Under the pieces are notes generated by a model. It worked only from the letters and a program-made list of their open reading frames with translations, searched no databases and had not been told where the DNA came from. This document shows, one piece after another, positions 3,625 to 48,966 of a stretch of 49,136 nucleotides of DNA (its first letter is position 1; each line of letters starts with the position of its first letter). This DNA is from Chiloscyllium plagiosum (Eukaryota), in NCBI RefSeq assembly GCF_004010195.1, contig NC_057752.1:6507956-6557091 (forward strand), written 5' to 3'. Both the position numbers and the translations under genes were made by a program.

Positions 3625-3990
3625 AAATAAAACAATGAATTGCAAATGCTGGAGATTTGAAACAAAGACAGAAGATGCTGGAGAAACTCAGCAAATCTGG
3701 CAGAACCTGTGGAAAGAGAAACAGAGTTAATGTTTCGAGTCCAGTGACCCTTCTTCAGACTAAAAGCAGCTGGGAAGTGGTGGTATTTATGCTGATAACA
3801 GGATGGGCTTGGGGTGGAAGGAGTTCGTGAAATAGATAGAGACGGTACTCAGAGTGAAAGCTAAATAGGAGAAGTAGGCAAAGGGATTGCTGATAGTTGG
3901 GAGAGAGGTAAATACAGAGTGGGTACTAACAGGAAGTGTGAATTGTTGAAAATGGGTTGACTGTGCTGGGAGCAGGACAGGACCTGGGGG
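3625..3990 (-). mobile_element. Older Penelope-like element 3' fragment with hammerhead motif
   Basis: Minus strand reads agtCTGAAGAaGGGTCactgGACTCGAAACattaact, then ...ctgctgagtttctccagca...ctccagcatttgca. A pyrimidine-rich tract lies upstream. Boundaries approximate. Confidence 0.6.
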
Positions 3991-4106
3991 ATGGATAACG
4001 AACATCGGCATCTCACAATTTCTTTTCATAGCCATTAGTGTTGTACAGTATTTGCATAATGACAGTTCCTTTTCACCCGTCAGTCTGATTCAGTTTTCTT
4101 CCTTAC

Positions 4107-4227
4107 CCACTGATACCAGTGATGAGAAAGTCAAGATTTCCTGTGATCTTCGTGCAGTTGATAAACTGATCGATGTTGTTTGAATCCACTGTCTGATATC
4201 GACTCCCAGCTCCAGTCCCGGCACAAG
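4107..4227 (-). CDS. ERBB3: ErbB receptor exon 9 (121 nt), start of L domain III
   Basis: Acceptor tttatataaccAG, donor GTaagg. Translates [40 protein letters not shown](G). Length 121 nt and GTGxGSRxQTVD match recalled human ERBB3 (ERBB4 exon 9 is 127 nt). Confidence 0.93.
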
Positions 4228-5187
4228 CTGGTTATATAAAGAAAGCAGAGGACACATCTGAGTAAGTTCTTTCTCTTTCAAAACATTCAGGTCAGAAGAA
4301 CCGAGGTAAAACTTCTGGTCTGTTCGGAATTATTTCATCTCAGCCAAACAGAAACCTGGCAATTTCCTGCCATTAAATACACCAAGATTTACTGTTTGGC
4401 TTCCCACGATGTATTGAAGGGCTGCAAACGTCTGCAGTATCCAAGAGAGAACCATCAAGGGGGGGGGGAGATTGCCAAAACAAGATGGGGAGGGAGTGAA
4501 AACATAAGAAGTCTCACTGGTAACAGAAATATTGTTGAATTTGCAATTATTGTACATTCGTCTTGTGTGAAATGCAACACATAAAATGGATTCTATGAAA
4601 TTCGTGCAGCGGAGCCTCCATGTGCCTGATGGTGGTGCTGTTGGAGAGCAGGAACTGGAAGCTCCACGTCACCACAAACAGATATACACAAGACGGCAAC
4701 GTTGGAAAGTTCCTGCAAGGAAAAAAAATCTGACTTTGTCTGACTTCAACATTTGGTGCAATTCAAATAAACAGAACTAAATTTCCTCAATGCATCATAT
4801 ACACCAATCAAGAGAATTTAGAAATGCTGAGTAACTGCTGGCGTGGTGGTGGGTAGAGGCACAGGCTGGCGAACAGTGCACGTGAGTGGACTTTGGAATC
4901 CCCATGCCATTACTTGAGGCCAAGGGAGTTCCTTTCAACCAGCGTTAGTAATGTCAGCCTTATCAGGCGATTTGTTCAATTGCTGTTTGTGATCCTTAGT
5001 GCCCACAATCAAGTGTTACATTTACCTACATAACAGCAATAACTGCTCTTGAAATGTAATATTTGGGTGGGACTTCCTGGGGCCATGTACTGTTTTAAAT
5101 AGATTTTCTTTCAGGAGTATGTCAGAAGTAGTGAAAGGATTCTGTTCTGCTATTGATGGCTCAGCATCAGTATAAAATTCCTGAGAG

Positions 5188-5500
5188 GGATTCTTGTGAT
5201 GCAGTGGTAGTGTCCTATCTCTGAATCAGGATGCCCCAATTCAAATCCCACCTGTTCTAGAGGTGTTTAATGACACAGAATCATAGGATCCTTACAGTGT
5301 AGCAACTGGCCCTTTGGCCCAACAAGTCCACACCGATCTTCCGAAGAGTAACCCACCCAGACCCATTCCCCCTCCCTATATTTACCCCTGACTAATGCAC
5401 CTAACCTACACATCTCTGAACACTATGGGCAATTTAGCACAGCCAATTCACCTAACCTGCACATGACATCTCTGAATAGGTTGCTTAGAAATATATAAAA
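5188..5500 (+). mobile_element. Short tRNA-derived SINE split by an HE1 3' fragment (5276-5462, minus strand)
   Basis: A-box-like gtgatgcagtggtag and B-box-like ttcaaatccc. The HE1 tail lies between duplicated ATGACA (5270-75 and 5463-68). Related sequence at 43165-43395. Confidence 0.55.
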
Positions 5501-6434
5501 TTCTCACATTGACATGTTCATATATTTGGGGAGGAGACTCTGTTCCAATGAAGGCTCCACACTGAAAGCCTAAACTACATTCTCAGCCATTTCTAGCATT
5601 TTCTACTTTTCTTTCAGATTTCCAGCATTTACAGATTTTTCCTATTTTTCAGTAAACCACAGACTGTTTCTATTCATAAGTGCACATTGTTTAAAATGCA
5701 ACCCAATACTGCTTCCATCAAGAACCACAAATTTGACACAATGAAAAAAAGTTCACTGTCTTGCCACCAATCTCTGGGTAAAGGCCACACTAATGCTAGA
5801 CCCCTGAGGGCTAATTGGTACCAGGATACTTCGGCCTCTATTTCTGTGGCTAGTGGCTTGATGGGACACAGAACTACTGACATGGGGTTGGGGGCAGAAT
5901 CTGGAATTGGGAAATTCAAGGAAGTGAAATTTCTTGCAAATTCACTGTCAATTTTATCAAGTTGCTACGAGGCTAAGCTGCCGATTGTGTGCTGGCAGCA
6001 GCCACATTTACAGAGTAAAGAATGTATACCAAGTGTTAATTATGTGAACAATATAAAATGCATAAGTAAATTAGACAGCTTTATCTAAAAACATCAAATT
6101 GGAGGTTTAAAAAAACTACACTTCTCTCACTTTTTAAAATAGGCCTCTCAATATGAGATCATACCGTAGATACTTAGAACAAGCCAACAAAGATGATCTC
6201 ACTGACTGGTTTTCCAGGTTAATTTCAGCTCCAGGTTCCAATGTGTTTTCAGGCACTGTGGTTTGACAGGCTGGATACAATTCAAGCAACAGAACTCAAA
6301 TTCCAATCAGCCACTAACTGGTACAAACATTTCTATTTACCCCACTAATATTGTAGCTTAAGGGTGTATCTGTTGCCGGGTCACCCTGGTGAGGAAGAAA
6401 GTCTGGCCAATACTGTTCACAATTTGCTGCTCAC

Positions 6435-6548
6435 CTTTCGGACACAGACCATCACACGGCTCGCACATTTTCACGCCATTTTTCTCAACCTCCATCTTGT
6501 CACTTGGACAAGCTCGGACACAAGAACTTTGATCAACAATAAAATTTG
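6435..6548 (-). CDS. ERBB3: ErbB receptor exon 8 (114 nt), end of domain II
   Basis: Acceptor tttatcctgcAG, donor GTgagc. Translates (A)[37 protein letters not shown]. Confidence 0.92.
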
Positions 6549-7412
6549 CTGCAGGATAAAAGACAGAGGAAACCAGTTACATTGCATGAGTACTTGCCTG
6601 AAAGTGCCAGCAATGATTTCCAGTGGTTAAAAAAATTTCACCACAAAGTAGATTGTCCATTGGCATCATTTTTAACTTAGGAGGAGATGGATGATACCAA
6701 AATGGCTAGCCATGATACACAATGCCTGATTTTCCCTCCCAGTGACTTTGGCGAAAAGAGAAATCTAATGCTACATATAATGAGCTAATTCAACATTGAC
6801 AACAATTAAAATTACTCTACGGGTACATAGAATGCTGCAGAGTGTCTCCTGACTGGTGAGGATCAATAGTTGAAGGACAAAGATTTAAGATAAATTGCAG
6901 AAGATTAAAGGGAAAGTGAGGAGAACCATTTATTAAACATAATGCAACTTGCTGTTATGAACTGGAATGCACTGGTGGCAAAGTCACCAAAGACCAAATT
7001 ACCTCCTTCTGCATTGAATAATTCTCTAAAATTTCTGCATGACTCTCCATGTGTTGAATGTCAGCACAACAGAAAGGCAACCCTATTCCATGTGCTTTTT
7101 AAAATGTGCACAGGCTAGTTTACAGGTAGTGGAGGTGGGATCCAAAGTCAGCATCCTGAGCCATACAGAACATGAAATTTCCAGATTCTCCCCACCAGCC
7201 TATTGAGTTAACCAAACCCAGCCTGGAAACAAATTGAGTGCGGAGAGGGACAGGATGTTTTGTTGGGAAGGCAGATCATTACTATACATAGTCCAGTGTT
7301 ACAGACACTGCTGAGCATTGCGTAAGTTCTCCTGATAAACCCATCATTTAAAGAGTGTGAAATGAGAGGGAAACAATTTTCCATCAATAATATAGACATT
7401 AGATGCACTTAC

Positions 7413-7554
7413 CAGGGCAGCTCTTCACACAGAAAGCTCCATACATATACTTGGTATCTGGGTTGCGCTCTAGCTGATAGGATTGCTTGTTGTAAATTAA
7501 TGGTTGTGGACAGACTGGGACACAGGCATTACTGTCATTAAACCGCCTGCATGC
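7413..7554 (-). CDS. ERBB3: ErbB receptor exon 7 (142 nt), domain II with dimerization arm
   Basis: Acceptor ttcccacAG, donor GTaagt. Translates [47 protein letters not shown]; CPQPLxYNK is ERBB3-like. Confidence 0.92.
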
Positions 7555-7803
7555 CTGTGGGAACATAATCGTTATGAAAGAATCAAACTGGCTTGAGGAA
7601 TAACCATTTCATAGTCTGATACTTATGCACACCATTGTTCCTCATTGCTTACACACTTTTGAGCAGTCTCAATCTGTCAGGCTCAAACACACTGTCTTTC
7701 AATTCCAATCACTCACTCCCCATCACTAATACTTACACTGCCTCTCAGACCTTGTTTCATTTCCTTTCTGTTATGTTCAGTCTGGCTGTCAGTCCCATCA
7801 CAG

Positions 7804-7836
7804 CCTGATGAAGGGCTTTTGCCCGAAACGTCGATT
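7804..7836 (+). ncRNA. Minimal type I hammerhead ribozyme motif
   Basis: CTGATGA (7805-11), A, GGGC-TTTT-GCCC, GAAAC, GTC (predicted cut after 7832). The 5' strand of helix I is mostly lost by truncation. Confidence 0.65.
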
Positions 7837-7931
7837 TTACTGCTCCTCAGATGCTGCCTGAACTGCTGTGCTCTTCCAGCACCACTAATCCAGAATCTGG
7901 CTTCCAGCATCTGCAGTCATTGTTTTTACCT
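7804..7931 (+). mobile_element. 128-bp Penelope-like hammerhead-bearing insertion with 13-bp TSD
   Basis: AGTCCCATCACAG duplicated at 7791-7803 and 7932-7944. The insert starts cCTGATGA. Confidence 0.85.
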
Positions 7932-8507
7932 AGTCCCATCACAGTAACTCACTGTCAGCCTCAGTCCCTCAGTTCCCACTGCATTCTCCCACATTCATTC
8001 CAATTGGTCTCCATGGTGGTCTCATCATATAGCTTCTCTCTTTATGCTCATCCCTCTTCTGAGTGCTCACATTATAAATCTCTATTGCACAATCATTCTT
8101 TTTCTCATTCACCTCTCAGTTTGTGTTATTTTTTTCCCAACAGAATGTCTTCTGACCAAAGTTGAGTGTTAGTATCATTCCTGCCAGGCACTCAAATCAA
8201 TCAGACATAGGACAGAATTGTCTGTCAGACAGCACTTCCTGAAGAGGAAGCAGACAAGCCTTTTTGCTTGTTCTTGACTACATCACCACCTCCTAATAAA
8301 ATGGTTCAGGATCAGTTCTCAGTGTTCACTATGCCCGGTACAGTTAGAATTTACACTTCATATGAGGAAAACGGACAGGAGATCCTCAACAGCTCGGAGA
8401 GCTTCTCTAAACATAGAAACAGAGGGGTAATCAATCTGAACCATTAACTCTGTTCTCTCTCCACACCTTTTTCCAGATCTCATTATTTCGGGATGTCTGG
8501 TTTAATT

Positions 8508-8601
8508 TCCATGCAAACTCCTCACAGTCACCTGGGGTGGAATCAAACCTGCATTCCTGGCACTGTGGGGCAGCAGTGTTAACCACTGAGCCACCATGCC
8601 A
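8508..8601 (-). mobile_element. HE1-type SINE 5' fragment (tRNA head)
   Basis: Matches 1135-1230 (ggcactgtg-ggcagcagtg-taaccactgagccaccatg). Confidence 0.75.
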
Positions 8602-8660
8602 CCAGCAAATTATACTAGAGTTCACATTTTGTCACCGATTGACTGAAGGAAGATACTTAC

Positions 8661-8782
8661 GAAACAGTCTGTATCTTTTGGCCCTGAACATCCACCGGCA
8701 CATTCACTGTGGCAGCACTCACTGGGGTTGTGTTGTCCAAAGCATCGGCCATTGCACTGAGGAGCACACACTGATTTGGTCA
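8661..8782 (-). CDS. ERBB3: ErbB receptor exon 6 (122 nt), domain II
   Basis: Acceptor ttcttcctcacAG, donor GTaagt. Translates (L)[40 protein letters not shown]. Not in the ORF track; read by hand. Confidence 0.92.
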
Positions 8783-8860
8783 CTGTGAGGAAGAAAAGAA
8801 AGTAGTAAACAGAAAAGAGTATGTTTTGTGGTCTTGACAGTTGGAAGTGTCAAATTTAAG

Positions 8861-9069
8861 GAGAAAGTGAGGACTGCAGATGCTGGAGATCAGAGCTGAA
8901 AATGTGTTGCTGGAAAAGCGCAGCAGGTCAGGCAGCATCCAAGGAGCAGGAGAATCGACGTTTCGAGCATAAGCCCTTCCTGAAGAAGGGCTTATGCTCG
9001 AAACGTCGATTCTTCTGCTCCTTGGATGCTGCCTGACCTGCTGCACTTTTCCAGCAACACATTTTCAGC
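8861..9069. mobile_element. 209-bp fold-back Penelope-like insertion with 15-bp TSD
   Basis: AGTGTCAAATTTAAG at 8846-60 and 9070-84. Inverted arms 8895-8979 and 8985-9069 (85 bp, 2 mismatches). Hammerhead core CTGAAGA...GAAACGTC at 8980-9007 on the plus strand. Confidence 0.9.
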
Positions 9070-9148
9070 AGTGTCAAATTTAAGCAAAGGTTAGAATCAT
9101 TACAGCTTTTTCTACTTGCTCATAATTTTTTTTACCTATTTACCTCAA

Positions 9149-9463
9149 GAATTAGAATTCCTGCAGTGTGGAAACAGGCCCTTCGGCCCAACAAGTCCAC
9201 ACTGACCCTCTGAAGAGTAACCCACCTAGACGCATTCCACTACCCTATATTTACCCCTGACTAATACACCTAGCCTAGGCATCCCTGAACACCATGGGCA
9301 ATCTAGCTTCCCAATGAACCTAACCTGCACATCTTTGGATTGTGGGAGGAAACTGGAGCACCTGTAGGAAATCCATGCAGACATGGGGAGAATGTGCCAA
9401 GTCCACACAGACAGTCACCCAAGGCTGGAATCAAACCCAGGTCCCTTGCACTGTGAGGCAGCA
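9149..9463 (-). mobile_element. HE1-type V-SINE, 5' truncated
   Basis: Colinear with 880-1200. Confidence 0.85.
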
Positions 9464-9894
9464 AGGCATTGATTCCTGCCAGAGTTCTAGAGGTCAGGAA
9501 CCCTTGAGCACCTCACAAAACTGAACATCGTCAGAAGGAATAACAAACATAAGGGATAGAAGTAGGTCATATAGCCCTCCAGCCTGCTCCACCATTCAAT
9601 GAAATCACAACTGATCTTCTGCCTCAAATTTCTCCATTTTCTCACCTTTTTCACATTTTCTGTGATTTACTTGGTGGCCAAAAACCTATCAGATTCAGTC
9701 TTAAATAATTCATCAAATGAAACTCCAGAGCTTTCTGGGGTAGAGAATTCCAAATATCGGCAGCTCTTTGATGAATTTTCAGTCCTAAATAGTCAACACA
9801 ATATTCTAATGGTCTTATTATTCCAACTTCAGGCCATACTGTGGAGGAGTAGACAAAAGAACGCACCAGTTCCTCAGTTCCTTTATCTGATAAA

Positions 9895-14122: not shown

Positions 14123-14142
14123 ATCTCATTCTTTCAGTCATA

Positions 14143-14656: not shown

Positions 14657-15604
14657 AAGTCAAGGAGATGTACAGCACGGAAACAGACCCTTCAGTCCAA
14701 CTCATCCATGCTGACCAGATATCCTAACCTATTTAGTCTCATTTGCCAGCACTTGCCCCATATCCCTCTAAACCCTTCCTATTCATATACCCATCCAAAT
14801 GCCTTTTAAATGTTGCAATTGTACCAGCCTCCACCACTTCCTCTGGCAGCTCATTCCATACACGTACCATCCTCTGCGTGAAAAGGTTGCCCCTTAGGTC
14901 TCTTTTATATCTTTCCCTTCTCACCCTAAACCTATGCCCTCTAGTTCTGGACTCCCCAAACCCAGGGAAAAGAGTCTCTCTATTTATCCTATCCATGCCC
15001 CTCATAATTTTGTAAACCTCTATAAAGTCACCCCTCAGCATCCGACGCTCCAGGGAAAACAGCCCCAGCCTGTTCAGCCTCTCCCTGTAGCTCAAATCCT
15101 CTAACCCTGGCAACATCCTTGTAAATCTTTTCTGAACCCTTTCAAGTTTCACAACATCTTTCCTATAGGAAGGAGACCAGAATTGCACGCAATATTCCAA
15201 CAGTGGCCAAACCAATGTCCTGTACAGCCACAACATGACCTCCAAACTCCTGTACTCAATACTCTGACCAATAAAAGAAAGCATACCAAACGCCTTTGTC
15301 ACTATCCTATCTACCTGCGATTCCACTTTCAAGGAGCTATGAACCTGCACTCCCAAGTGTATAAGTCCTGCTAAGATTTGCTTTCCCAAAATGCAGCACC
15401 GAGGGCCCAGCACCAATCGTTGTGGCACTCCACTGGTCACAGGCCTCCAGTCTGAAAAACAACGCTCCACCACCACCCTCTGTCTTCTACCTTTGAGCCA
15501 GTTCTGTATCCAAATGGCTAGTTCTCCCTTTATTCCGTGAGATCTAACCTTGCTAACCAGTGTCCCATGGGGAACCTTGTTGAACGCCTTACTGAAGTCC
15601 ATAT
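14657..15604 (-). mobile_element. CR1 LINE, 5' truncated, with internal deletions
   Basis: ORF 14739..15653 has DFSKAFNKVPH, SGVPQ and LEYCVQFWSP motifs. Near-identical to 47514-48669 but lacks the YINDL/FADD block. Confidence 0.9.
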
Positions 15605-15772
15605 AGCTGGTACAATTACAACGTTTAAAAGGCTTCTGGATGGATAAATGCATAGGAAGGGTTCAGATGGATATGGGCCAAATGCTGGCAAATGGGATAG
15701 GTTCAAATTTGGATGTCTGGTTAGCGTGGACAAAATGGACTGAAGTGTCTGTTTCCATGCTGCATGATTCTA
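15605..15772 (+). mobile_element. CR1 LINE 3' end fragment
   Basis: gctggtacaattacaac...atatgggccaaatgctggcaaatggga...tctgtttccatgctg; inverted relative to the adjacent CR1. Confidence 0.8.
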
Positions 15773-17904: not shown

Positions 17905-18062
17905 GTCATGATTTGGAGATGCCGATGTTGGACTGGGGTGTACATAGTTAAAAATCACACAACACCAGGTGATAGTCCAACAGGTTTGATTGGAAGCACA
18001 CCAGCTCGTGTGCTTCCAATCAAACCTGTTGGACTATAACCTGGTGTTGTGTGATTTTTATC
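17905..18062. mobile_element. 158-bp fold-back insertion with 9-bp TSD (second family, probably Penelope-like)
   Basis: TTTGAAGTA at 17896-904 and 18063-71. Arms 17949-18001 and 18008-18060 (53 bp, 1 mismatch) centred on AGCT. Confidence 0.75.
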
Positions 18063-18519
18063 TTTGAAGTAAAAATCTTTGTAATTCCACAATGTGCCAC
18101 CAGATGAATGCACAGGATCGAGTCTACATTACAGAAGGCTGGTGGCAGCAATCTCAGGAGAAAGGCATTTTCCGAGGAGCTGGTTAAGGAATACAAATGT
18201 GAGCTCTCTTTATACAATAACAAGAGGTCTATTGGAGGCCACCCTGAAGTGTAAATGAAGGCATCAAAAGTTTGTTGAAGGAGAAACTTTCACTGAATAT
18301 CTCTGACCAAATGTGCCAGTGACAGTAAAGTTAACCAACTGCTACCACTGCTTCAAGCTCATAATTCCAATTCAAAGCAAAGATGGGCTAATCACTGAGC
18401 TCACCCATGCAGACCAACAACTTGCTTTCACCCTACAACCTTCCAAAATATCTGCCCTCCTCCAGGAGCTCAATTTTAATCACTCCACCTTTGGCAACAA
18501 AATCTTCAAGTTGCTTTTC

Positions 18520-20931: not shown

Positions 20932-22617
20932 GAACATAGAACATTCCAGCGCAGTACAGGCCCTTTGGCCCTCGATGTTGCACCGACTTGTGAAACCAAT
21001 CTGAAACCCTTCTAGCTACACTATTCCATTTTCATCCATATGTTTGTCCAATGACCATTTAAGTGCCCTTAAAGTTGGCGAGTCTACTACTATTGCAGGC
21101 AGTGCATTCCATCCCCCTACTACTCCAAATAAAAAAACTACCTCTGACATCTGTCCTATATCTATCACCCCTCAATTTAAAGCTATGCCCCCTTGTGTTA
21201 GCCATCACCATGTAAGGAAAAAAGGCTCTCACTGTCCACCATATCTAACCCTCCCATTATCTTATATGTCTCAATTAAGTCACCTCTCAACCTTCTTCTC
21301 TCCAATGAAAACAGCCTCAAGTCCCTCAGCCTTTCCTCGTAAGACCTTCCCTCCTTACCAGGCAACACCCTAGTAAATCTCCTCTGAATCCTTTCCAAAG
21401 ATTCCACATGCTTCCTATAATGCGGTGACCAGAACTGTATGCAATATTCCAAGTGCAGCCACACCAGAGTTTTGTACAGCTGCAGCATGACCTCATGGTT
21501 CTGAAGCTCAATCCCTCTACTAATAAAAACTAACACACCATATGCCTTCTTAACAACCCTATCAACCTGAGTAGCAACTTTCAGCGATCTATGTACATGG
21601 ACACTAAGATCTCTCTGCTCATCTACACTACCAAGAATCTTATCATTAAGCCCAGTACTCTGCATTTTTGTTCCTCCTTCCAAAAGTGAATCACCTCACA
21701 CTTTTCCACATTAAAATCCATTTGCCACCTCTCAGCCCAGCTCTGCAGCTTATCCATGTCCCTCTGTAACCTACAACATCCTTCTGCACTATCCACAATT
21801 CCACTGATCTTAGTGTCATCCGCAAATTTACTAACCCATCCTTCTATGCCCTCATCCAGGTCGTTTATAAAAATGATAAACAGCAGTGGACCCAAAACAG
21901 ATCCTTGCAGTACACCACTAGTAACTGAACTCCAGGATGAACATTTTCCATTAACCACCATTAACCACTTCTTTCAGCTTAGCTAATTTATGATCCAAAC
22001 CGTTACATCACCCTCAATCCCATGCCTCCATAGTTTGTGCAATAGCCTACTGTGGGGAATCTTATCAAATGCCTTACTGAAATCCATACACACCACATCA
22101 ACCACTTTGCCCTCATCCACCTGGTTGGTCACCTTCTCAAAGAACTCAATGAGGTTTGTGAGGCACGACCTACCCTTCACAAAACCGTGTTGACTATTCC
22201 TAATCAGCTTATTCCATTCTAGATGATTATAAATCCTATCTCTTATAATCTTTTCCAACACTTTACCCGCAAGCGAAATAAGGCTCACTGGTCTATTCCC
22301 CTTCTTGAACAAAGGAACAACATTTGCTATCCTCAAGTCTTCTGGCACTATTCCTATCGACAATGACAACATAAAGATCAATGCCAAAGGCTCGGCAATC
22401 TCCTCCCTGGCTTCCCAGAGAATCCCAGGAATCCAGCCCTTATCTATTTTTACACTTTCCAGAATTGCTAACACCTCCTCCTTGTGAACCTCAATTCCAT
22501 CTAGTCTAGTAGCCTGAATCTCAGTATTCTCCTCAACCAACATAGTCACACTAGAAAAAGACTATTGACAAAAAATATTCATTTAGCACTTCCCCTATGT
22601 CCTCTGACTCCATGCAT
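20932..22617 (-). mobile_element. CR1 LINE (second subfamily), 5' truncated, 8-bp TSD
   Basis: RT fragments QHGFVKGRSCLTNL, DFSKAFD, INDLD...KFADD in broken frames; (GTTCTAT)-type tail; AAGTCTTA at 20924-31 and 22618-25. Confidence 0.9.
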
Positions 22618-22789
22618 AAGTCTTACAGATAAGCTTGCTCAGGAAACACAAACTGGAGATGTTCCTTCAATCACTTTTTCAAAAGAACAAATAGATTTCA
22701 CTTGAACTTAATAGAAGGTTTTCTTTTCAGAAATAAGAAGGTTTAACTGGGCAGCTTGTTCTTAGTAGGCTTTCTTCCAACTAAACGAT

Positions 22790-22910
22790 AGTGAGAACTG
22801 CAGATGCTGGAAAGTCAGAGTCAATAAAGTGTGGAACTTGAAAAAGCATAGCAGGTCAAGCAGCATCATAGGAGGAGAGGAGTTGATGTCTCAGGTCGGA
22901 ACCTTTCACC
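22790..22910 (-). mobile_element. Degenerate Penelope-like terminal fragment
   Basis: gtgagaactgcagatgctgga...gaaaaagcatagcaggtcaagcagcatc matches the 8861 family; hammerhead core decayed. Confidence 0.7.
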
Positions 22911-24749: not shown

Positions 24750-25040
24750 ACTACACGGCATCAATGTCAACTTCACCAGTTTCCTCATCTCCCCTTCCCC
24801 CACCTCATCCCACCTCCAACTCGGCACCGTTCCCCTTGAACTGTCCTACCTGTCCATCTTACTTTCCACCTATGCACTCCACCCTCCCCTCTGACCTATC
24901 ACCATCACCCCCATCTGCATCTACTGTACCTATCGCCTTCCCAGCAATCTTTCCCCCACCCCCACCCTCATATTTATCACTCAGCCCCTTTTCCCCCTCC
25001 CCACATTCCTGCTGTACTTTTCCAGCGCCACCCTTTTCAA
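24750..25040 (+). mobile_element. Penelope-like ORF C-terminal remnant plus pyrimidine tract and terminal-repeat start
   Basis: HGINVNFTSF resembles the recalled C-terminus of Penelope GIY-YIG ORFs. It is followed by a C/T-rich tract, then ATTCCTG (25005-11) fused directly to ctgtacttttccagc of the 8861/25572 family. Confidence 0.6.
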
Positions 25041-25571
25041 CACTAGTGCAGCAGTGTCTAAACTGGGGGAAGGCCAATTTCAATATCATTAGACAGGATC
25101 TGGCAAAAGTAGACTTGCAGATAGGTCTACATTTGGAAAGTGGGAATCTTTTAAAAATAGTATAGTAAGAATTCAGGGCTAGCGTATTCCTTTAAGAATG
25201 AATGGCAAGAGCAGCAAGTCCAGGGAGCCCTGGATGTTTAGGGGATACTGAGAGTTGAGAAAGGAAAAAGGAAGCTTATGTTGGGTATAATGGATTAAAA
25301 ACAGGGGAGGCCCTTCAAAGGTATAGGGTGTAGGGGGTTGCTTAAAAAATAAAATTAGGAAGGCAAAGAGGGGCAATGAAATATCTTTGGCAGATAGGAT
25401 CAAGAAAAACCCCAAGGTGTTTTAGAGTGGTGCCTGTTAAAGACCAAACAGGCAACCTGTGTGTGGAGCCAGAGGATGTGGGTGAGATCTTAAATGAATA
25501 TTTCTCATCTATATTCATAAAGGAGAAAGACATTGTAGCTGGGGATTTCAGTTGGGATGGTGAGGCTCTAG

Positions 25572-33295: not shown

Positions 33296-35020
33296 TGAAT
33301 TGAATTGAATTGAATTTATTGTCACGTGTACCAAGGCACAGTGAAAAGCTTTGTCTTGCAAGCAATACAGGCAGATCACAGAGTTAAGTAGCATAGATAG
33401 TAAATAATAGGTAAGCAGTAGCAAAAACAAAAACATAGGTACAGGTGAATGTTAAGAGTTTGTGAGTCCATTCAGTATTCTAACAACAATAGGGTAGAAA
33501 CTGTTTTGAAACTGGCTGGTGCATGTGTTCAGGGTTCTGTACCTTCTCCCTGATGGTAGAGGTTGTAGGAAAACATTGCCAGGGTGGGATGGATCTTTGA
33601 GAATGCTGGCGGCCTTTCCTTGACAGTGGGCCTGGTAGGTGGATTCTATAGATGGGAGGTTGGCCTTTGTGATTGTCTGGGCTGAGTTCACCACTCTCTG
33701 TAACAGTCTCCGATCTTGAATGGTACAGTTGCCATACCAGGTAGTGATACATCCAGACAGAATGCTCTCGATGGCGCACCTATAAAAGTTGGCAAGGGTA
33801 TTCGCTGCCATGCCAAATGTCCTCAGCTGTTTGAGGAAGAAGAGACGTTGTTGGGCCTTTGTAAGCAGTGTATCCACATGAAGAGCTGAAAATGTGTTGC
33901 TGGAAAAGCGCAGCAGGTCAGGCAGCATCCAAGGAACAGGCGAATCGACGTTTCGGGCATAAGCCCTTCTTCAACTCCTCTCCTGTTCCTTGGATGCTGC
34001 CTGACCTGCTGCGCTTTTCCAGCAACACATTTTCAGCTCTGATCTCCAGCATCTGCAGTCCTCACTTTCTCCTGTCCACATGAAGAGTCCAAGAAAGTTT
34101 GTTGTGGATGGCCACACCCAGGAGCTTGACACTCCACTCGTTCCATTCTGTGCTGTTAATGTGTGGGAGGGGGCATGAGTAACATCCCACCGAAAGTCAA
34201 TAACGAGTTCCTTGGTTCTTCTGGCATTGAGAGCTAGGTTGTTCTCAGTGTACCATTTTTCCAGGTCTTCCACCTCCCATCTGTAGTCTGTTTCGTCGCC
34301 ATCTGAGATTCAACCGACTATGGTGGTGGTGTCATCAGCAAATTCGTAAATGGCATTAGTCTGGTATTTGGCGACGCAGTCATGGGTATACAGTGAGTAC
34401 AGTAAGGGGCTGAGTACGCACCCCTGGGGGACTCTAGTGTTGAGTGTTAATGAGGATGAAATATTGTGCCCAGTCTTCACTGATTGTGGCCTGTGGGTCA
34501 GGAAACTGAGGATCCAGTTACAGAGAGTGGGGCGTGGTCCGAGATCACTAAGATTAGTAATCAGCCTCAAGGGGATAATAGTGTTGAAGGCTGAACTGCA
34601 GTCAATGAGTAGGATTCTTATGTAGCTGTTCATGGTGTCAAGATGTTCTAGGGAGGAGTGAAGAGCAACTGATTTGGCATCTGACATGGATCTGTTGGTC
34701 CAATAGGCAAATTGGAGTGGGTCAAGAGTAGTGGGGAGGCTGGAATTGATTAATGCCATGACCAGCCTTTCAAAGCACTTCATGACCACTGAAGTTAGGG
34801 CCTCTGAAAAGTAGTCATTCAGACAAGCTGCATGAGCTTTCTTAGGCACAGGGATGATGTTGACCCTCTTGAAACAGGCAGGGACAGTGGCCTGCTGCAG
34901 GGAGAGGTTGAAGATGTCCGAGAAGACCTCTGTCAGTTGATCTGAGCATGCTCTGAGTGCACGGCCTGGTACTCCGTCTGGTCCCATCGCTTTCCTTGGA
35001 TTCACATGAAGGAAAACTGA
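33296..35020 (-). mobile_element. Rex1/Babar LINE, 5' truncated, RT domain present
   Basis: KAMGPDGV, ALTSVVMKCFERLV, LDPLQFAY, SAFNTI, VPQGCVLSPLLYSLYTHD, FADD; (CAATT)n tail; interrupted at 33886-34072. Confidence 0.92.
33886..34072. mobile_element. Fold-back Penelope-like insertion nested in Rex1
   Basis: TSD T(A/G)TCCACATGAAGAG at 33871-85 and 34073-87; same subfamily as 8861-9069. Confidence 0.9.
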
Positions 35021-35216
35021 TGGGAAGTGAAGTAAAAACTTGGCCTATAAATTCAGCTGTGCAAAGCAGAGTTGCAGGAACCATGCTGAATACAACCATG
35101 TTGCAGCCAGCATTACCCATTGGGATGGGTTGATAGTGGTGCAGGAAATTAGCTTCACTGAGACGTCTTAAAGACAGCCATTACCCCTTACAGTAAGGAG
35201 CACACTGTAAAATACG

Positions 35217-36752
35217 TAGAGTCATAGAGTCACAGAAATGTACAGCATGGAAACAGACTCTTTGTCCCAACTCTTACATGCCAACCAGATATCCTACATT
35301 AATCAAATCCCATTTGCCATCGCTTGGCCCATATCCGTTGAAACCCTTCCCATTCATATACCCATCCAGGTGTATCTTAAATGTTATCATTGTACCAACC
35401 TACACCACTTCCTCTGTGGACAGACAGGAGGCTGGAAGAACACAGTAAGCCAGGCAGCATCAGGTGGTGAAGAAGTCGACATTTCGGGTGTAACACCTCC
35501 ACCACTTCCTCTGGCAGCTCATTCCAGACACACATCACCCTCTGTGTGAAAACGTTTCCCCTCAGGTCCCTTTTAAATCTTTCCCCTCTGACCCTAAACC
35601 TTTGCCCTCTAGTTCCGGACTCCTCCATCCCAGGGAAAAGACTTTGTCTGTTTACCCTATCCATGCCCTTTATGATTTTATATACTGCCATAAGGTCACC
35701 CCTCAGCCTCTAAAGCTCCAGGCTCCAGGGAAAACAGCCCCAGCCTATTCAGCCGCTTCCTATACCTCAAATCCTCCAACCCTGGCAACATCCTTGTAAA
35801 TCTTTTCTGAACCCTTTCAAATTACACAACCCTTCCTATAGGAAGGAGACCAGAATTGCACCAATATTCCAAAAGTGGCCTAACCAATGTCCTGTGCAGC
35901 CGCAACATGACCTCCCAACTCCTGTACTCAATACTCTGACCAATAAAGGAAAGCATACCAAATGCCTTCTTCATTATCCTATCTACCTGCCACTCCACTT
36001 TCAAGGAGCTATGAACCTGCACTCCAAGGTCTCTTTGTTCAGCAACACTCCCCAGGACCTTACAATTAAGTGTATAAGTCCTGCTCTGATTTGCCTTTCC
36101 AAAATGCAGCACCTCGCATTTATCTAAATTAAACTCCATCTGCCACTCCTCGGCCCATTGTCCCATATGATCGATATCCCATTGTACTCTGAAGTAATCT
36201 TCTTCATTGTCCACTACACCTCCAATTTTGGTGTCATCTGCAAACTTACCAGCCATACCTCCTATGTTCACATCCAAATCATTTATATAAATGACAAAAA
36301 GTAGTGGACCCAGCACTGATCCTTGTGGCACACCATTGGTCACAGGCCTCCAGTTTGAAAGGCAACCCTCCACCACCACCCTCTAGCTTCTACCTTCGAG
36401 CCAGTTCTGTATCCAAATGGCTAGTTCTCTCTATTCCATGTGATCTAACCTTGCTAACCAGTCTACCTTGAGGAATCTTGTCAAACACCTTACTGAAGTC
36501 CATACAGATCATGTCCACTGCTCTGCCCTCATCAGTCCTCTTTGTTACTTCTTCAAAAAACTCAATCAAGTTTGTGAGACATGATTTCCCATGCACAAAG
36601 CCATGTCGACTATACCCTAATCAGTCCTTGCCTATTCAAATACATGTAAATCCGATCCCTCAGGATTGTCTCCAACAACTTGCCCACCACCGATGTCAGG
36701 CTCACTGGTCTATAAGTCCCTGGCTTTTCCTTACCACCTTTCTTAAATAGTG
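35217..36752 (-). mobile_element. CR1 LINE, 5' truncated
   Basis: ORFs 36390..36596 and 35822..36379 (GKSCLTNL, DFSK, GVPQGSVLGP, YINDLD, KFADD); (gactctat) tail. Confidence 0.92.
35417..35494 (-). mobile_element. 78-bp Penelope-like fragment nested in CR1 with 19-bp TSD
   Basis: ACCT(A/C)CACCACTTCCTCTG at 35398-416 and 35495-513; insert matches the 31105 subfamily. Confidence 0.8.
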
Positions 36753-37138: not shown

Positions 37139-37337
37139 TTAGATTAGATTAGATTACATTACAGTGTGGAAACAGGCCCTTCAGCCCAACAAGTCCACAC
37201 CGACCCGCCGAAGCGCAACCCACCCATACCCCTACATTTACCCCTTACTTAACACTACGGGCAATTTAGCATGGCCAATTCACCTGACCTGCACATCTTT
37301 GGACTGTGGGAGGAAACCGGAGCACCCGGAGGAAACC
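37139..37337 (-). mobile_element. HE1-type V-SINE 3' half, cut by the gap
   Basis: V-core and tail with (TAATC)n end; CpGs retained, so probably young. Confidence 0.85.
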
Positions 37338-37376: not shown

Positions 37377-37470
37377 CCTGAAGAAGGGCCTGTGCCCGAA
37401 ACGTCGAATCTCCTGTTCCCTGGATGCTGCCTGACCTGCTGTGCTGTTCCAGCAATAAGGTTTCAACTGT
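37377..37470 (+). mobile_element. Penelope-like fragment with intact hammerhead core
   Basis: cCTGAAGA-A-GGGC-CTGT-GCCC-GAAAC-GTC-GAAT at 37377-37409. Confidence 0.8.
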
Positions 37471-39042: not shown

Positions 39043-39162
39043 ACAGAGTAGATATTTTGGGTCCAGTGAAGTGACCTTTCAGTGGACCCAAAACATTAAC
39101 TCTGCTTTCTCTCCACAGATACTGCCAGAGCTGCTGAGTTTCTCCAGCAATTTCTGCTTTCA
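39043..39162. mobile_element. Degenerate fold-back copy of the older Penelope-like family
   Basis: cagagt...ttttgggtcca is inverted against tggacccaaaacattaactctg; continues ctgctgagtttctccagca as in 3625-3760. Confidence 0.6.
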
Positions 39163-40076: not shown

Positions 40077-40237
40077 TTTGGATTAGTGGTGCTGGAAGAG
40101 CACAGCAGTTCATGATGAAGGGCTTTTGCCTGAAACGTCGATTTTGCTGCTCCTCGGATGCTGCCTGAACTGCTGTGCTCTTCCAGCATCACTAATCCAA
40201 AATCTGGTTTCCAGCATCTGCAGTCATTGTTTTTACC
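40077..40237. mobile_element. Fold-back Penelope-like insertion with 14-bp TSD
   Basis: TAA(G/T)TTAACCAATT at 40063-76 and 40238-51; about 35-bp inverted arm; same subfamily as 7804-7931. Confidence 0.85.
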
Positions 40238-41559
40238 TAATTTAACCAATTGTTTATCTTCCAAATTCTTCACTATCTAACCTTAGTTTGGATGATCTCT
40301 CCAGGTAATCTAACCCCTGGAGTCTCTGTTCCATTCCCCCCCAAACTAATGCAACTTTTCAAAGATGTATTGTTCAGACAGTTTGCAAAAAAAAACACAA
40401 TGACAAATTGGATACATTTGGGTTCTATTCCTTGGAAATGAAGAGACTAAGGAATAACTGAGGTATTTACATTAATAAAGGGAACTAACAAGTATTGGTA
40501 GAGGAAATGATTGTTCCCTCAAATAAGGGAATCCAAAATAAAGGATAACAATCTTCAAATTTAAGCTGAACTGGTCAAAAGTGAATGCATAAGAAACCAA
40601 TTCACAGAAAGAGCTTGAGAATGTGGAATGCACTGGCCTTAAAAACCTTAAACATCAAGTCAATGGAGGTAATCCAAATTAAGATGTTTCCTTGGGATAG
40701 AAAGATACAAGTAATGGAGAAAGGACATGAAATTGTGATTAAAATAATGATGGCTAACAAAATGGCAGAACAGGTTCGATAGGGTGAATGGCATCCAGTT
40801 CAAATAAACTAACCTTAATTAGTAGTCATGACCATAAAAGATGAACAGGTACATTGATGGTTAATGCCATAATCTTTGAAACATGACATAGCACGAAAGC
40901 CTTCCAATCAAGTGTGGCATTGTGATTTCAAAACTTGGCTCATCATTCACCTGCTCAACTCAAATGTGAAACTATGAATGGTAAACACTGTTGGCTTGAT
41001 TTACTGGTAGAACTGATAAGGTAGATTTGCATGCAGTGATAACATTGTTCTGTGTAATCTGAAAGTGTAATCAAAACATGAAGGATAAATAGTGCCAGTT
41101 CCCAGATTTGGCCATTTTGCAGCTCCACCACACTAACAACTCTTGCATCAAATAATATAGAATGAAGTCCCTGGGAGATACTTTATTTTTTTCTCTTGGA
41201 GAAATTTAACAACTCCCCTCCTTTCCTCAAAGCTTCAATACCACATGAGACTGATGTGGCGGTTTATCACTGGAGCTTCAGCAATGACTGTCAATCTCCA
41301 ATGGGAGGCATCAGTACCAGCCCTAATTCCATCTTTGTCCAAAAGCTACACATGCCCAATATTCAACAGAGGCACTGTGCCATCAAACGTCAAATCTAGC
41401 CCAGAGTCTTATAGTCAACAGTGAGGCATGAACCAAATGCATTTGCCTCCACAGCCCTTATTGTCGATTTCTTCCTCCCATGTTGTGTGGAATGTGGACT
41501 GAACATACTTGCCCATGTTTCCAAAATGGCCACTCTTCATCAAAGTCAGCACAGACAAT

Positions 41560-45529: not shown

Positions 45530-46085
45530 ATTTTGAGGTTGTACAGGATATTGGTGAGGCCTTTTCTGGAGTACTGTGCACAATTCTGGTTGCCCTGCTA
45601 TAGGAAGGCGATCACTAAATTGAAGGTGGTTCAGAAAAGATTAACTAGGATGTTGCCAGGAATGGAAGATTTGGGCTATAAAAAGACTGGATAGGCTGGG
45701 ACCTTTTTCACTGGAGCATAGGAGGTTGAGGGGTGACCTCATAGAGGTTTATAAAATTATGAGGGGCATAGATAAGGTGAATAGCAAGGATATTTTCCCC
45801 ATGGTGGGTGTGTTCAAAACTAGGGGTCATAATTTTAGAGAAAGTTTTAAAAAGGACATGAGGGGCAACCTTTTAACATAGAGAGTGGTTTATGTGTGGA
45901 ATGAACTGTCAGAGGAAGTGATAGATGCAGGTACAGTTACAACATTTAAAAGACATTTGGACAGGTACCTGAATAGGAAAAGTTTGGAGGGATATGGGCC
46001 AAATGCAGGCAGGTTTAGGAACATGGTCAGCGTGGGCTTGTTGGACCGAAGGATCTGTTTCTATGCTGTTCGACTCTGTGTTCTA
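45530..46085 (+). mobile_element. CR1 LINE 3' portion
   Basis: LYRILVRPFLEYCAQFW; VWNELSEEVIDAGTVTTFKRHLD. Confidence 0.88.
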
Positions 46086-47513
46086 TGTTTTACATTTGCT
46101 AATTTGATGTTCCCAATCAACACAAAGGTTGTACTGCTTTTTTTTTAATGTGCCCTCATTATCTCCTGATTTATCCTCTGTCCTACAGAACAGTTACAGT
46201 TAGGAGCCAATAGACTTCTCTCACCAGTATCTTCTTCCCCTTGATCTTTCCTACATCATCCCATCATAGATTATTTCTTGCTATCATATTCATTCCATCT
46301 CGTACTAACAAAGCTAACCCACCCCCCTTTCCTTTTTACCTGTCATTTTGAAAAGCCACATATCCCTGAATGTTTAGTTTCTAGCTTTGATCTCCTTGTA
46401 ACCATGTCTCTGTGATGGCTACAACATCATACCCATTAACCTCTATTTGTGCCACTAATACTTTTAATTTATTCTGAATACTATGCACATTTAATTAAAG
46501 AGCCATTAATTTTACCTGTTTACTCTTTTCTCCCCCTTTTACCCTATTTGCTGCTGCTTTTTAATGTTTGCACACACTGGCCTTTCCTGTCCCACTCTGC
46601 CTATTATTATTAAAATAGTTGCCCTCCAGTGTGACAATATCCTCTTACTTTGTAAGTCTACGTATTCTCCTAAAGCCTCCTCCCTCTAATTCATTTAAAG
46701 CCCTCCTATAGCTGTAATTATTTGATTCACCAGGATATTGGTCTCAGCATGGTTCAAGTCAAGCCCATCTGACTGAAACAGCTCCTTTCTACCCCAGTAC
46801 TGGTGCCTGTACCCCACGAAGTGAAACCCATTCCTGCCACATCACTCTTTATGGCATGCACTTAACTCCTTCACCTTGTTTACTCTGTGCCAGTTCGCTT
46901 GTGGCTCTGGTAGTAGTCCTGAGATTATTATTTTGGAGGTTCTGCTCTTCAGTTTAACTCCTAACTGATTATGGCTAATCATCTAACCCGTTCCTGCTTT
47001 TTCCCCACACCTTTTGATCTCTTTGGCCCTAAGAACTGTATTGAACTCCTTCTTGAAAATGTTAAATATTTTGGCCTCAACTACTTTCCCTGGCAGAGAA
47101 TTCCACAGACCACCACTTTCTGGGTGAAGAAATTTCTCCTCAAAGAGTCCCCACTGTGTGACAACAGCTTTATTCTGCCCTGGTCTATCTGGACTCCTGG
47201 AGATTGTGACATAGTTTTCTTATCCAGCAGCAGAATAATTCACAACTTTGCCAAAAAGATTAGAGATAAATTTAGCAATGTGAATGTTAGCAGCCAGCTC
47301 ACAGTGCAGTGGTCTCCCAGAATCCAAGCTAAACAATCACTGGTGTGCAAATGGCTGACAAGAATTTAACCGTAACTACTGTACCTCCCTTCAAATAGTT
47401 AAGAAAGAGAAAGTCTATGGCAATGCAAATTGTACATGTGCCACTAAATGGACACTTTGACAAATATATCATCTCCACCTTTTGATGCCCCTGTCCTGAG
47501 CAAAATCTTTACT

Positions 47514-48669
47514 TGGAGTCATAGAGATGTACAGCATGGAAACAGACCCTTCGGTCCAACCCGTCCATGCCGACCAGATATCCCAACCCAATCCAGTCCC
47601 ACTGCCAGCACCCGGCCCATATCCCTCGCAACCCTTCTTATTCATATACCCATCCAAATGCCTCTTAAATGTTGCAATTGTACCAGCCTCCACCACTTCC
47701 TCTGGCAACTCATTCCATACACATACCACCCTCTGCGTGAAAAGGTTGCCCCTTAGGTCTCTTTTATATCTTTCCCCTCTCACACTAAACCTATGCCCTC
47801 TAGTTCTGGACTCCCCAACCCCAGGGAAAAGACTTTGCCTATTTATCCTATCCATGCCCCTCATAATTTTGTAAACCTCTAATTAGATCACCCCTCAGCC
47901 TCTGACACTCCAGGGAAAACAGCCCCAGCCTGTTCAGCCTCTCCTTGTAGCTCAGATCCTCCAACCCTGGCAACATCCTTGTAAATCTTTTCTGAACCCT
48001 TTCAAGTTTCACAACATCTTTCCGATGGGAAGGAGACCAGAATTGCACGCAATATTCCAACAGTGGCCTAACCAATGTCCTGTACAGCCGCAACATGACC
48101 TCCCAACTCCTGTACTCAATACTCTGACCAATAAAGGAAAGCATACCAAATGCCTTCTTCACTATCCTATCAACCTGCGACTCCACTTTCAAGGAGCTAT
48201 GAACCTGCACTCCAAGGTCTCTTTGTTCAGCAACACTCCCCAGGACCTTGCCACGCAGTGTATAAGTTCTGCTAAGATTTGCTTTCCCAAAATGCAGCAC
48301 TTCGCATTTATCTGAATTAAACTCCATCTGCCATGTCTCCGCCCATTGGCCCATCTGGTCCAGATCCTGTTGTAATCTGAGGTAACCCTCTTCGCTGTCC
48401 ACTACACCTCCAATTTTGGTGTCATCTGCAAACTTACAAACTGTACCTCTTATGCTCGCATCCAAATCATTTATATAAATGACAAAAAGTAGAGGACTCA
48501 GCACCGATCGTTGTGGCACTCCACTGGTCACAGGCCTCCAATCTGAAAAACAACCCTCCACTACCACCCTCTACCTTTGAGCCAGTTCTGTATCCAAATG
48601 GCTAGTTCTCCCTGTATTCCATGAGATCTAACCTTGCTAATCAGTCTCCCATGGGGAACCTTGTTGAAC
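47514..48669 (-). mobile_element. Young CR1 LINE, 5' truncated
   Basis: 239-aa open RT segment (SGVPQ, YINDLD, KFADD, LEYCVQFWSP) with a frameshift near 47880. Confidence 0.92.
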
Positions 48670-48827
48670 ATGCTGCCTGACCTGCTCGAGGGTAATCAGC
48701 TGGTCAAGTTTTAATTGCCCAAGGGGTGTTAGAGAGGAATGTCTGAGATTTTTGTGGGTAATTTTTCACTTCTCCTGCCTGGAGAAAAATTGTGTTTGAG
48801 TTGAGTGGGGAGTGTATCTATTGTGTT

Positions 48828-48966
48828 TCAGGCATTATTCCTGATGAAGGGCTTATGTCCAAAAAATCAATTCTCCTGCTCCTCAGATGCTGACTGACCT
48901 GCTGTGCTTTTCCATCACTGCATTCTCGACTCTGAGCTCCAGCATCTGCAGTCCTCACTTTCTCCC
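48828..48966 (+). mobile_element. Penelope-like terminal fragment, hammerhead partly decayed
   Basis: attcCTGATGAagggcttatgtcc; GAAACGTC mutated; ends ctccagcatctgcagtcctcactttctcc. Confidence 0.78.

What the first reader, a model, noticed from the sequence alone, without database searches (positions are those of the whole stretch)
3725..48870. Dispersed short retroelements carrying a minimal hammerhead ribozyme, with helix covariation
Seen: CTGANGA-A-[helix II]-GAAAC-NTH recurs with an intact core at 7805 (+), 8980 (+) and 37378 (+), nearly intact at 3725-3761 (-), and partial at 25632 (-), 33942 (-), 40112 (+) and 48841 (+). Helix II keeps its pairing while the sequence changes: GGGC-TTTT-GCCC, GGGC-TTAT-GCTC, GGGC-CTGT-GCCC, GGGTC-ACTG-GACTC. 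Helix I strands also covary across copies: ATTC/GAAT in one family, AGT/ACT in the other. Helix III is only the palindrome ACGT. Established: this is the layout of the minimal type I hammerheads of Penelope-like elements and retrozymes, thought to cleave as dimers. Inference: at least four subfamilies of 80-210 bp non-coding, ribozyme-bearing copies without poly(A), about one per 3-4 kb here, possibly a non-autonomous retrozyme-like class in sharks.
Basis: partly seen in the sequence, partly recalled or inferred. Interest (0 to 1): 0.75.

Follow-up and report, generated by a model that had tools for sequence, protein, structure and literature searches.

The report
Hammerhead stubs of shark Penelope elements
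These short repeats are the end pieces, each with a minimal hammerhead-ribozyme motif (cutting untested), of protein-coding Penelope-type jumping genes present in the same genome, a known kind of element; their fixed ends suggest that they are likely copies of the uncut front of the element's RNA rather than a separate self-spreading class.

Summary
The motifs are real: intact cores at 7805, 8980 and 37378, and 81,449 exact matches genome-wide against 0 for the control pattern. Helix I and III covary across families. The helix II differences cited within the main family are only loop changes and decay.

They are not a separate retrozyme class. Longer copies run on, colinearly, into a pLTR, a GIY-YIG endonuclease with a Neptune-type CX4CXXC linker, and an RT. 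One contiguous 2.6-kb copy ends in a stretch 96% identical to window 7804-7895.

The ends are not random. 3' ends fall at about +62 or +98 from the predicted cut (the PLE 'tail'). 5' ends pile up at the first base of helix I (59 of 84 insertions at risk), not at the cut (4 of 110). Of 50 young head-to-head pairs, 39 have a target duplication and 38 have one long and one short tail.

Best reading: internal priming on uncut RNA, run-off at a likely start site, often from both target strands. No TSS or cleavage was shown. The scan found this before on other DNA (173 notes). New member of a known kind; interest 0.33.

The parts
3622..3824 (-). Family E PLE end: about 65 nt of upstream pLTR with CATAAATA, hammerhead core 3758-3729 (GGGTC-ACTG-GACTC, ACGT decayed to ACAT), tail
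   Evidence: aligned 3659-3824; 3' end read from sequence
7804..7931 (+). Family A solo stub from -28 to the long-tail end; intact core 7805-7832; 13-bp TSD AGTCCCATCACAG at 7791 and 7932; the 5' strand of helix I is missing
   Evidence: 95.7% identical over 92 nt to the end of the long copy L232
8436..8480 (+). Decayed fragment of family E, no core
8860..9069 (.). Family B head-to-head pair: minus arm with long tail, plus arm from -30 with short tail and intact core 8980-9007; 15-bp TSD AGTGTCAAATTTAAG at 8846 and 9070; arms 98% complementary over 85 nt
17906..18066 (.). Family D head-to-head pair that turns at the AGCT helix III palindrome (both arms start at -4), so no core; long plus short tail; 16-bp TSD with 1 mismatch.
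22787..22905 (-). Old copy from -20 to long tail, core incomplete
24754..25044 (+). Longer copy: last 19 codons of the endonuclease ORF (HGINVNFTSFLISPSPTSS), whole pLTR, ATTC, then the hammerhead deleted, short tail
   Evidence: 16 of 19 residues identical to P0002
25577..25758 (.). Head-to-head pair: minus arm -26 to short tail (C3 missing), plus arm +6 to long tail; 14-bp TSD TGGTGAGGCTCTAG
33882..34072 (.). Family B head-to-head pair: minus arm -26 to short tail (C3 missing), plus arm +4 to long tail; 13-15-bp TSD TCCACATGAAGAG
35431..35504 (-). Old partial copy of a diverged family
37377..37468 (+). Family C (CTGT loop) copy, intact core 37378-37405, short tail; its 5' side abuts an assembly gap, so helix I cannot be read
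39079..39160 (+). Family E partial copy starting inside helix II
40080..40241 (.). Family A head-to-head pair: short minus arm +25 to +59, plus arm from the core to long tail (C3 replaced at the junction); about 10-14-bp TSD
48837..48965 (+). Family B' solo stub beginning exactly at ATTC (-31), GAAA box decayed, long tail; no TSD found

Best explanation
The repeats are short insertions of the terminal module (hammerhead motif plus about 60-100 nt) of protein-coding Neptune-type Penelope-like retrotransposons, and most were likely made when the element's reverse transcriptase started inside the uncut RNA leader and ran off its 5' end. Shown: the unit is hammerhead, tail, 37 nt, ORF (N-terminus, RT, Zn linker, GIY-YIG), about 220 nt of pLTR, hammerhead, tail. 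Shown: 3' ends sit at about +62 or +98 from the predicted cut, 5' ends peak at -31 (A of ATTC, first base of helix I), TSDs are mostly 11-17 bp. Inferred: the endonuclease makes a staggered cut, and the RT primes at one of two internal sites, as the Anolis Poseidon protein does in vitro. Inferred: -31 is the transcription start, so priming in the 5' leader gives a 90-130-nt run-off cDNA, and priming in the 3' pLTR gives the longer, variably truncated copies. Inferred: when both target strands prime, one at each site, the two cDNAs join head to head and give the palindrome with a tail on one side. The stubs are probably dead on arrival. The hammerhead fold is under selection in the parent elements, but cut RNA is apparently not the usual template.
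For: Parent element: GIY-YIG Pfam match over cut-off. L232 is a gap-free 2.6-kb copy with DKG, RT motifs (MDIQSLYTSI, RYIDD), EN, pLTR, core and short tail between CAAGATAGTTCTC repeats. Close homologues of the RT piece carry PF00078 and the named ones come mostly from sharks and rays. Tail runs into the ORF 5' end in 9 of 29 loci, with a complete core upstream in 3. CX4CXXC before GIY-YIG is the Neptune/Nematis mark (PMC8557442, passages).

Ends: 59 of 84 insertions that reach -26 end by -35, against 4 of 25 in the next 10 nt (Fisher p=1.7e-6); 4 of 110 end at -2..+3. Genome-wide family B exact counts: 43,036 reach -31, 23,158 reach -35, 19,117 reach -39, so 54% then 83% survive equal 4-nt steps. 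Family D: 23 of 58 arms start at -40..-24.

Pairs: TSD in 39 of 50 young pairs, control 0. 38 of 50 are long+short, 3 same-type, 9 unclassified, while solos are 38 long and 36 short. In 25 of those 38 the short-tail arm reaches further 5', so neither arm contains the other.

Promoter hints: -31 lies in an Inr-like YYANWYY (TCATTCC, TTATTCC; motif recalled). A TTATCT stretch starts 32 nt upstream in families A/B. TATAAAT and CATAAATA stand about 30-35 nt before helix I in D and E.

Precedent: two internal RT starts that match the tail, extension of both strands, cleavage not needed (PMC11167929, main text). TSS inside the pLTR in D. virilis (PMC2377424, passages).
Against: No direct TSS evidence: the one informative raw RNA run (single-cell poly(A)) shows no place where many molecules begin or end. 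The extra G expected from copying a cap is not significant: 14 of 52 junctions, 2 of 14 solos. The TATA-like stretch in A/B is non-canonical and the copies are homologous, so it is one observation. In D. virilis the TSS is about 120 nt upstream of helix I with an intron between (PMC2377424, PMC4209133), so a start at helix I is not general. The sample overstates the step: it kept 121 of 214 insertions and dropped copies beside assembly gaps, which are often long; the genome-wide excess is about one third of the copies that reach -31. The two arms of a pair differ by 4.8% against 8.7% for same-family arms, but only 12 of 35 mates are as close as the nearest other arm, so one template molecule is not shown. 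The window's own family D pair turns at the helix III palindrome, next to the cut.
Confidence: 0.6

Rival explanations
1. Same PLE origin, but -31 is an RT barrier or a preferred joining point on a longer read-through RNA (folded or protein-bound hammerhead, or ATT microhomology with the target), not the RNA's 5' end.
For: Several solo junctions share 1-3 nt (A, AT, ATT) between TSD and ATTC. PAc prefers ATT for cleavage and its protein assists hammerhead folding (PMC11167929). No cap or read-start evidence here.
Against: The peak is as strong in arm-to-arm junctions, where no target DNA takes part (57 of 137 paired arms). An RT coming from the 3' side has already unwound the fold when it reaches -31 (inference). 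Promoter-like motifs sit about 30 nt upstream in three lineages.
Confidence: 0.22
2. The RNA is cut by the hammerhead, but the RT jumps the nick onto the 5' fragment held by helix I or passes a religated junction, so cleavage leaves little trace in the genome.
For: Helix I and III covary across families, so the fold is under selection. PAc HHR cleaves with protein help (PMC11167929). 4 insertions end at -2..+3, L256 starts at +1, and the pair at 17906 turns at -4.
Against: The per-base end rate at the cut (0.006) is like its surroundings (0.003-0.005) and far below -26..-35 (0.114); a jump should fail often. A circle predicts no stop at -31.
Confidence: 0.08
3. The short units are a self-propagating non-autonomous family (SINE- or retrozyme-like) that spreads from short master copies or circular RNA.
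For: Short units outnumber long ones and have fixed ends. If the promoter is internal, stubs could be transcribed. All 5 sampled TAAT-loop cores were short. Animal retrozymes derive from pLTRs (bioRxiv 10.64898/2026.07.22.740005).
Against: Copies are colinear with the autonomous terminus and form a size series from under 60 to 645 bp. 19,117 family B copies still carry upstream pLTR. Pair centres differ from copy to copy. 1 head-to-tail dimer in 214 insertions. Stubs end at the RT start and so lack the downstream stretch that PAc needs (inference from PMC11167929).
Confidence: 0.06
4. Ordinary random 5' truncation, with palindromes made by fold-back of one cDNA.
For: High 5' truncation and inverted copies are the described norm (PMC8557442). 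Self-priming was proposed for Adineta PLEs (PMC3846280).
Against: The step at -31. In 25 of 38 typed pairs neither arm contains the other, which a single fold-back cannot give without later trimming.
Confidence: 0.04

Closest known systems
EN+ Penelope-like elements, Neptune (or Nematis) type (PMC8557442, passages; PMC3846280, passages)
   Same: RT then C-terminal GIY-YIG with CX2-5CXXC linker and DKG motif; pLTR with hammerhead; heavy 5' truncation; adjacent inverted copy; 30-40-bp tail on one side; TSD.
   Different: Extreme abundance (families A-D cover 3.8% of sampled bases); most insertions are only the terminal 90-220 bp; TSDs mostly 11-17 bp against 8-10 in Adineta; a sharp 5' boundary at helix I is not mentioned in the passages read.
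Minimal hammerheads (min-HHR) of metazoan PLEs (Cervera and de la Pena 2014, PMC4209133, results and discussion read)
   Same: Type I, no helix III beyond a palindrome, extra base between A9 and G10.1, G10.1-C11.1, short helix I, many families per genome, mostly single motifs 'probably related to truncated PLEs', some pairs on opposite strands.
   Different: Sharks are not named in the parts read (supplements not seen); counts here (over 81,000 exact matches to one pattern) exceed the 4,000-9,000 given for coelacanth and Xenopus; the main families have a U.U mismatch in a 4-bp helix I.
PAc, Poseidon of Anolis carolinensis (Frangieh 2024, PMC11167929, main text read)
   Same: Two ends about 35 nt apart some 60-100 nt past the hammerhead; uncut RNA as apparent template.
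   Different: Poseidon clade, ORF starts inside the hammerhead; here the likely ATG is 37 nt past the tail. The paper does not describe leader-only insertions or a 5' stop.
Animal non-LTR retrozymes (PMC7761336, passages; bioRxiv 10.64898/2026.07.22.740005, introduction to discussion read)
   Same: Non-coding, 100-300 bp, type I hammerhead, pLTR-derived; reported in one cartilaginous fish.
   Different: Retrozymes are head-to-tail arrays giving circular RNA; these are solos or head-to-head pairs with the two motifs on opposite strands, and are colinear with autonomous elements.

Membership tests
EN+ Penelope-like element | ORF with PLE-type RT followed by GIY-YIG endonuclease | tested here: met
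   L232/L151 contiguous but frameshifted copy; Pfam GIY-YIG; RT by homologues with PF00078; the RT pieces alone gave no Pfam hit. No intact full ORF recovered: long open frames were assembly gaps.
EN+ Penelope-like element | pLTR repeated at both ends with hammerhead; ORF follows the 5' pLTR | tested here: met
   Hammerhead-tail-ORF start in L275, L276, L280; ORF end-pLTR-hammerhead-tail in L123, L125, L232. Both ends were not seen in one gap-free copy.
EN+ Penelope-like element | Inverted 5' copy, 30-40-bp tail on one side, TSD, no poly(A) | tested here: met
Neptune clade | CX2-5CXXC linker before a C-terminal GIY-YIG | tested here: met
   CHRRNCKTC in P0002; shared with Nematis (PMC8557442)
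Neptune clade | RT phylogeny with reference PLE clades | not tested
   No named reference sequences in hand; Neptune against Nematis is not resolved here
Minimal type I hammerhead | Core CUGANGA, GAAA, NUH with palindromic helix III and compensatory changes in helices | tested here: met
   Rfam models did not match
Minimal type I hammerhead | Self-cleavage as dimer or with protein | not testable with these tools
   No read pile-up at the cut in one unsuitable library
Non-LTR retrozyme | Head-to-tail tandem units each with a full hammerhead | tested here: not met
   1 abutting dimer in 214 insertions; none in the window
Non-LTR retrozyme | Independence from a colinear coding parent | tested here: not met
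   not settled for the TAAT subfamily (5 cores, all short) or families E-G, whose ORFs were not sought
Non-LTR retrozyme | Circular RNA intermediate | not testable with these tools
   No suitable RNA data

The most novel reading that the evidence does not exclude
Shark Neptune elements start their RNA at the first base of the hammerhead and reverse-transcribe it uncut from two internal sites, one on each nicked target strand. Hundreds of thousands of leader-only 'strong-stop' insertions then record the start site and both priming sites, and two-sided priming, not fold-back, explains the inverted pLTR with a one-sided tail that marks all EN+ PLEs.
Probability: 0.5. Interest if true: 0.6.

Novelty: new member of a known kind. 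Interest (0 to 1): 0.33.

Why it matters
As elements, these are ordinary: PLE ends with minimal hammerheads are described from fish, coelacanth and frogs. Their value is as a very large fossil record of an unsolved transposition cycle. Published work leaves open what the PLE hammerhead does and how the inverted pLTR and tail arise. The end statistics give two testable answers: cut RNA is not the usual template, and the two arms of an inverted insertion are separately primed cDNAs. The several-percent genome share also means that shark repeat annotation and hairpin or miRNA prediction will meet these palindromes often (Rfam's best weak hits here were miRNA models).

Tried and rejected
Rfam scan: no hammerhead family at E<=10; weak miRNA hits are the palindromes. 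DNA search of the genome with the 8895-9069 palindrome returned nothing because common words are skipped. Pfam GIY-YIG against the genome gave one hit, L031, not examined. The 770-2160-aa 'open frames' were N gaps in all 20 examined. PDB search with the RT piece: nothing under E 0.2.

RNA: no RNA holder listed. X22 laid 0 reads. X21 showed no start or end pile-up, but it is a poly(A) single-cell library dominated by passenger copies. Loose ends at -31, +61 and +99 in other runs (350, 74 and 247 contigs in X15) agree with the junction peaks, but those at -31 are mixed with other subfamilies' upstream sequence, so I do not count them as proof.

A 3' splice site at -31 was rejected: no AG precedes ATTC. 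Extra-G cap mark: inconclusive. Folding: the leader's fold is not more stable than shuffles (z -1.0) and helix I does not form in the monomer; one search folded the antisense strand by mistake and is not used. The 9 family G ends at -35 were set aside as likely alignment artefacts between diverged subfamilies. Peaks at +11 to +20 among solos come from old or other-family copies aligning only by the conserved block. Four of the 21 solo 'TSDs' come from a 44-bp minisatellite and are false.

Literature: no paper held hammerhead+Penelope+shark in a relevant sense (1 review, 'shark' refers to the shape), Penelope+Neptune+shark+retrotransposon (0), or PLE twin priming (3 listings on other topics); two searches gave listings only. 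Repbase and Dfam could not be searched, so the families may be catalogued.


Full report
Numbering. Positions are given relative to the predicted cleavage nucleotide C17 (0). In families A-C the C of CTGA is -27 and the A of ATTC is -31.

1. Observation. A motif scan finds intact cores at 7805, 8980 and 37378 and a CpG-decayed one at 3758 (-); the four partial copies are as described. In 1,204,607 non-N bases (the window, 200 kb around it and twenty 50-kb blocks from 20 other contigs) a paired-helix descriptor gives 93 hits against 2 in the control. One 29-nt pattern matches 81,449 times genome-wide, control 0. Rfam has no hammerhead match at E<=10. The window lies in introns of an ERBB-family gene on the minus strand; the exon at 23187-23360 matches ERBB4 best (E 3e-25 against 3e-18 for ERBB3). 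The three intact cores are antisense to that gene.

2. Covariation. Across 8 lineages the first three helix I pairs are canonical in 22 of 24 cells: 1.1 is G-C, A-U or U-A; 1.2 is A-U, U-A or G-C; 1.3 is A-U, G-C or C-G. This is reached by 6 of 40,320 permutations. Helix III is ACGT or AGCT, both palindromes. The lineages are related, three are G subfamilies, and E and F rest on 3 and 2 copies, so the number is not a clean probability.

3. Parent elements. Copies extend upstream to varying lengths into a pyrimidine-rich pLTR and an ORF end. That ORF end is a GIY-YIG domain preceded by CHRRNCKTC, the CX2-5CXXC linker of Neptune and Nematis PLEs (PMC8557442, passages). The longest open frames in the genome search were gaps. 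A search with the DKG region gave L151/L232, a gap-free, frameshifted 2.6-kb copy: N-terminal region, RT motifs, endonuclease, pLTR, core, short tail, with a 13-bp repeat on both sides. Window 7804-7895 is 95.7% identical to its last 92 nt. Of 90 homologues of the RT piece many carry PF00078, and the top named ones are shark and ray proteins. In 9 of 29 loci holding the ORF's 5' region the tail runs straight into it, with a likely ATG 37 nt on; 3 of them have the complete core upstream. The window itself holds the link: 24754-25044 has the last 19 codons of the endonuclease, the pLTR and a tail, with the hammerhead deleted.

4. Ends. BLAST with 19 natural references gave 276 arms of families A-C in the sample, grouped into 214 insertions, 62 of them close head-to-head pairs. 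TSDs of 9 bp or more flank 39 of 50 young pairs (control 0) and 21 of 84 young solos (control 1; 4 of the 21 are false), mostly 11-17 bp. 3' ends are bimodal at about +58-66 and +95-103. For 5' ends I kept 121 of 214 insertions (identity 85% or more, 3' end at +44 or beyond, no gap within 30 nt, minisatellite dropped). The per-base end rate is 0.006 at the cut (4 of 110), 0.114 at -26..-35 (59 of 84) and 0.017 in the next 10 nt (4 of 25); the mode is -31 (19 insertions). Dropping gap-adjacent copies removes long ones and inflates the step. Genome-wide exact counts for family B avoid most of that: 43,036, 23,158 and 19,117 copies reach -31, -35 and -39, an excess loss of about one third. Family D shows a broader cluster, 23 of 58 arms at -40..-24.

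5. Pairs. Of 50 young pairs 38 have one long and one short tail, 3 have two of a kind and 9 have an unclassified end; solos split 38 to 36. In 25 of the 38 the short-tail arm reaches further 5', in 6 the long-tail arm, 7 tie. Each arm then holds sequence that the other lacks, which a single cDNA folding back cannot produce unless trimmed later. The arms are more alike than average family members (4.8% against 8.7%) but not provably from one molecule.

6. Mechanism. PAc from Anolis cuts and extends both target strands, starts reverse transcription at two internal sites that match the genomic tail, and does not need hammerhead cleavage (PMC11167929, main text). D. virilis Penelope starts transcription inside the pLTR (PMC2377424, passages). 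I infer that the shark RNA starts at about -31, carries both priming sites in its leader, and yields 90-130-nt run-off cDNAs when primed there; two-sided priming gives the palindromes; priming in the 3' pLTR gives long copies. PLE origin is about 95% certain; the run-off and two-sided model about 60%. Against it: no read starts at -31 (unsuitable library), no significant extra G (14 of 52), a non-canonical TATA in A/B, and a different start position in Drosophila. Most stubs cannot act as ribozymes on their own: helix I is often truncated, pairs put the two motifs on opposite strands, and only 1 head-to-tail dimer was seen in 214 insertions.

7. Known and new. Cervera and de la Pena (PMC4209133, results and discussion) describe these minimal motifs in fish PLEs, as dispersed singles and as opposite-strand pairs. 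Inverted pLTR, tail and TSD are in PMC3846280 and PMC8557442 (passages). The retrozyme criterion of tandem units (PMC7761336, passages; bioRxiv 10.64898/2026.07.22.740005, parts 1-3 of 5) is not met. Dimer cleavage by Lunse et al. is known to me only through a review passage (PMC6765202); PMC6155905 was seen as passages. Supplements of PMC4209133 and of the preprint were not seen and may list shark motifs. Searches found no shark-specific account and no twin-priming model for PLEs in this library. This scan has 173 earlier notes with these words in at least 16 genomes, several with the same run-off and two-sided readings. My reading was noted before I opened them; they are not independent evidence. 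They gave two leads that I tested (extra G, TATA spacing) and the paper PMC3846280.

8. Verdict. Observation confirmed with corrections; interpretation partly supported; new member of a known kind; interest 0.33.

Noticed in passing
If it is the same gene, that note may have the wrong paralogue.
   Followed up: partly
window:882-1232, 5280-5438, 9149-9491, 26963-27298, 37147-37337: Repeated SINE-like family and CR1-type LINE 3' ends (HE1 and HER1 names recalled, not tested); LINE RT pieces at 14739-15662, 21198-22561, 26111-26521, 35822-36382, 47848-48570.
   Followed up: no
window:19124-19823 and 33399-35044: Two copies of another LINE with RT (Rex/Babar-like, name recalled); the PLE pair at 33882-34072 is inserted into one of them.
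   Followed up: no
L002:1500-1700: Between the TSD and the hammerhead stub lie a short snap-back of the target and about 150 nt of another LINE, suggesting a template switch during insertion.
   Followed up: no
G000:C5:5025381-5025700 (L074): A 44-bp minisatellite of about five units built from the +20..+64 part of family C, without hammerhead.
   Followed up: partly
L050:1380-1425, L225:4796-4841, L191:2205-2250: A further hammerhead group (G) with long helix II and TATAAATA plus TCACT upstream; three subfamilies with compensatory helix I changes; ORF not examined.
   Followed up: partly
L264, L273: Partial tandem duplications of the leader and ORF start, as expected from template jumps.
   Followed up: no
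L123:4500-4760, L125:3900-4300: The family A ORF has a long Pro/Thr-rich low-complexity stretch before the conserved N-terminal RT motifs.
   Followed up: no
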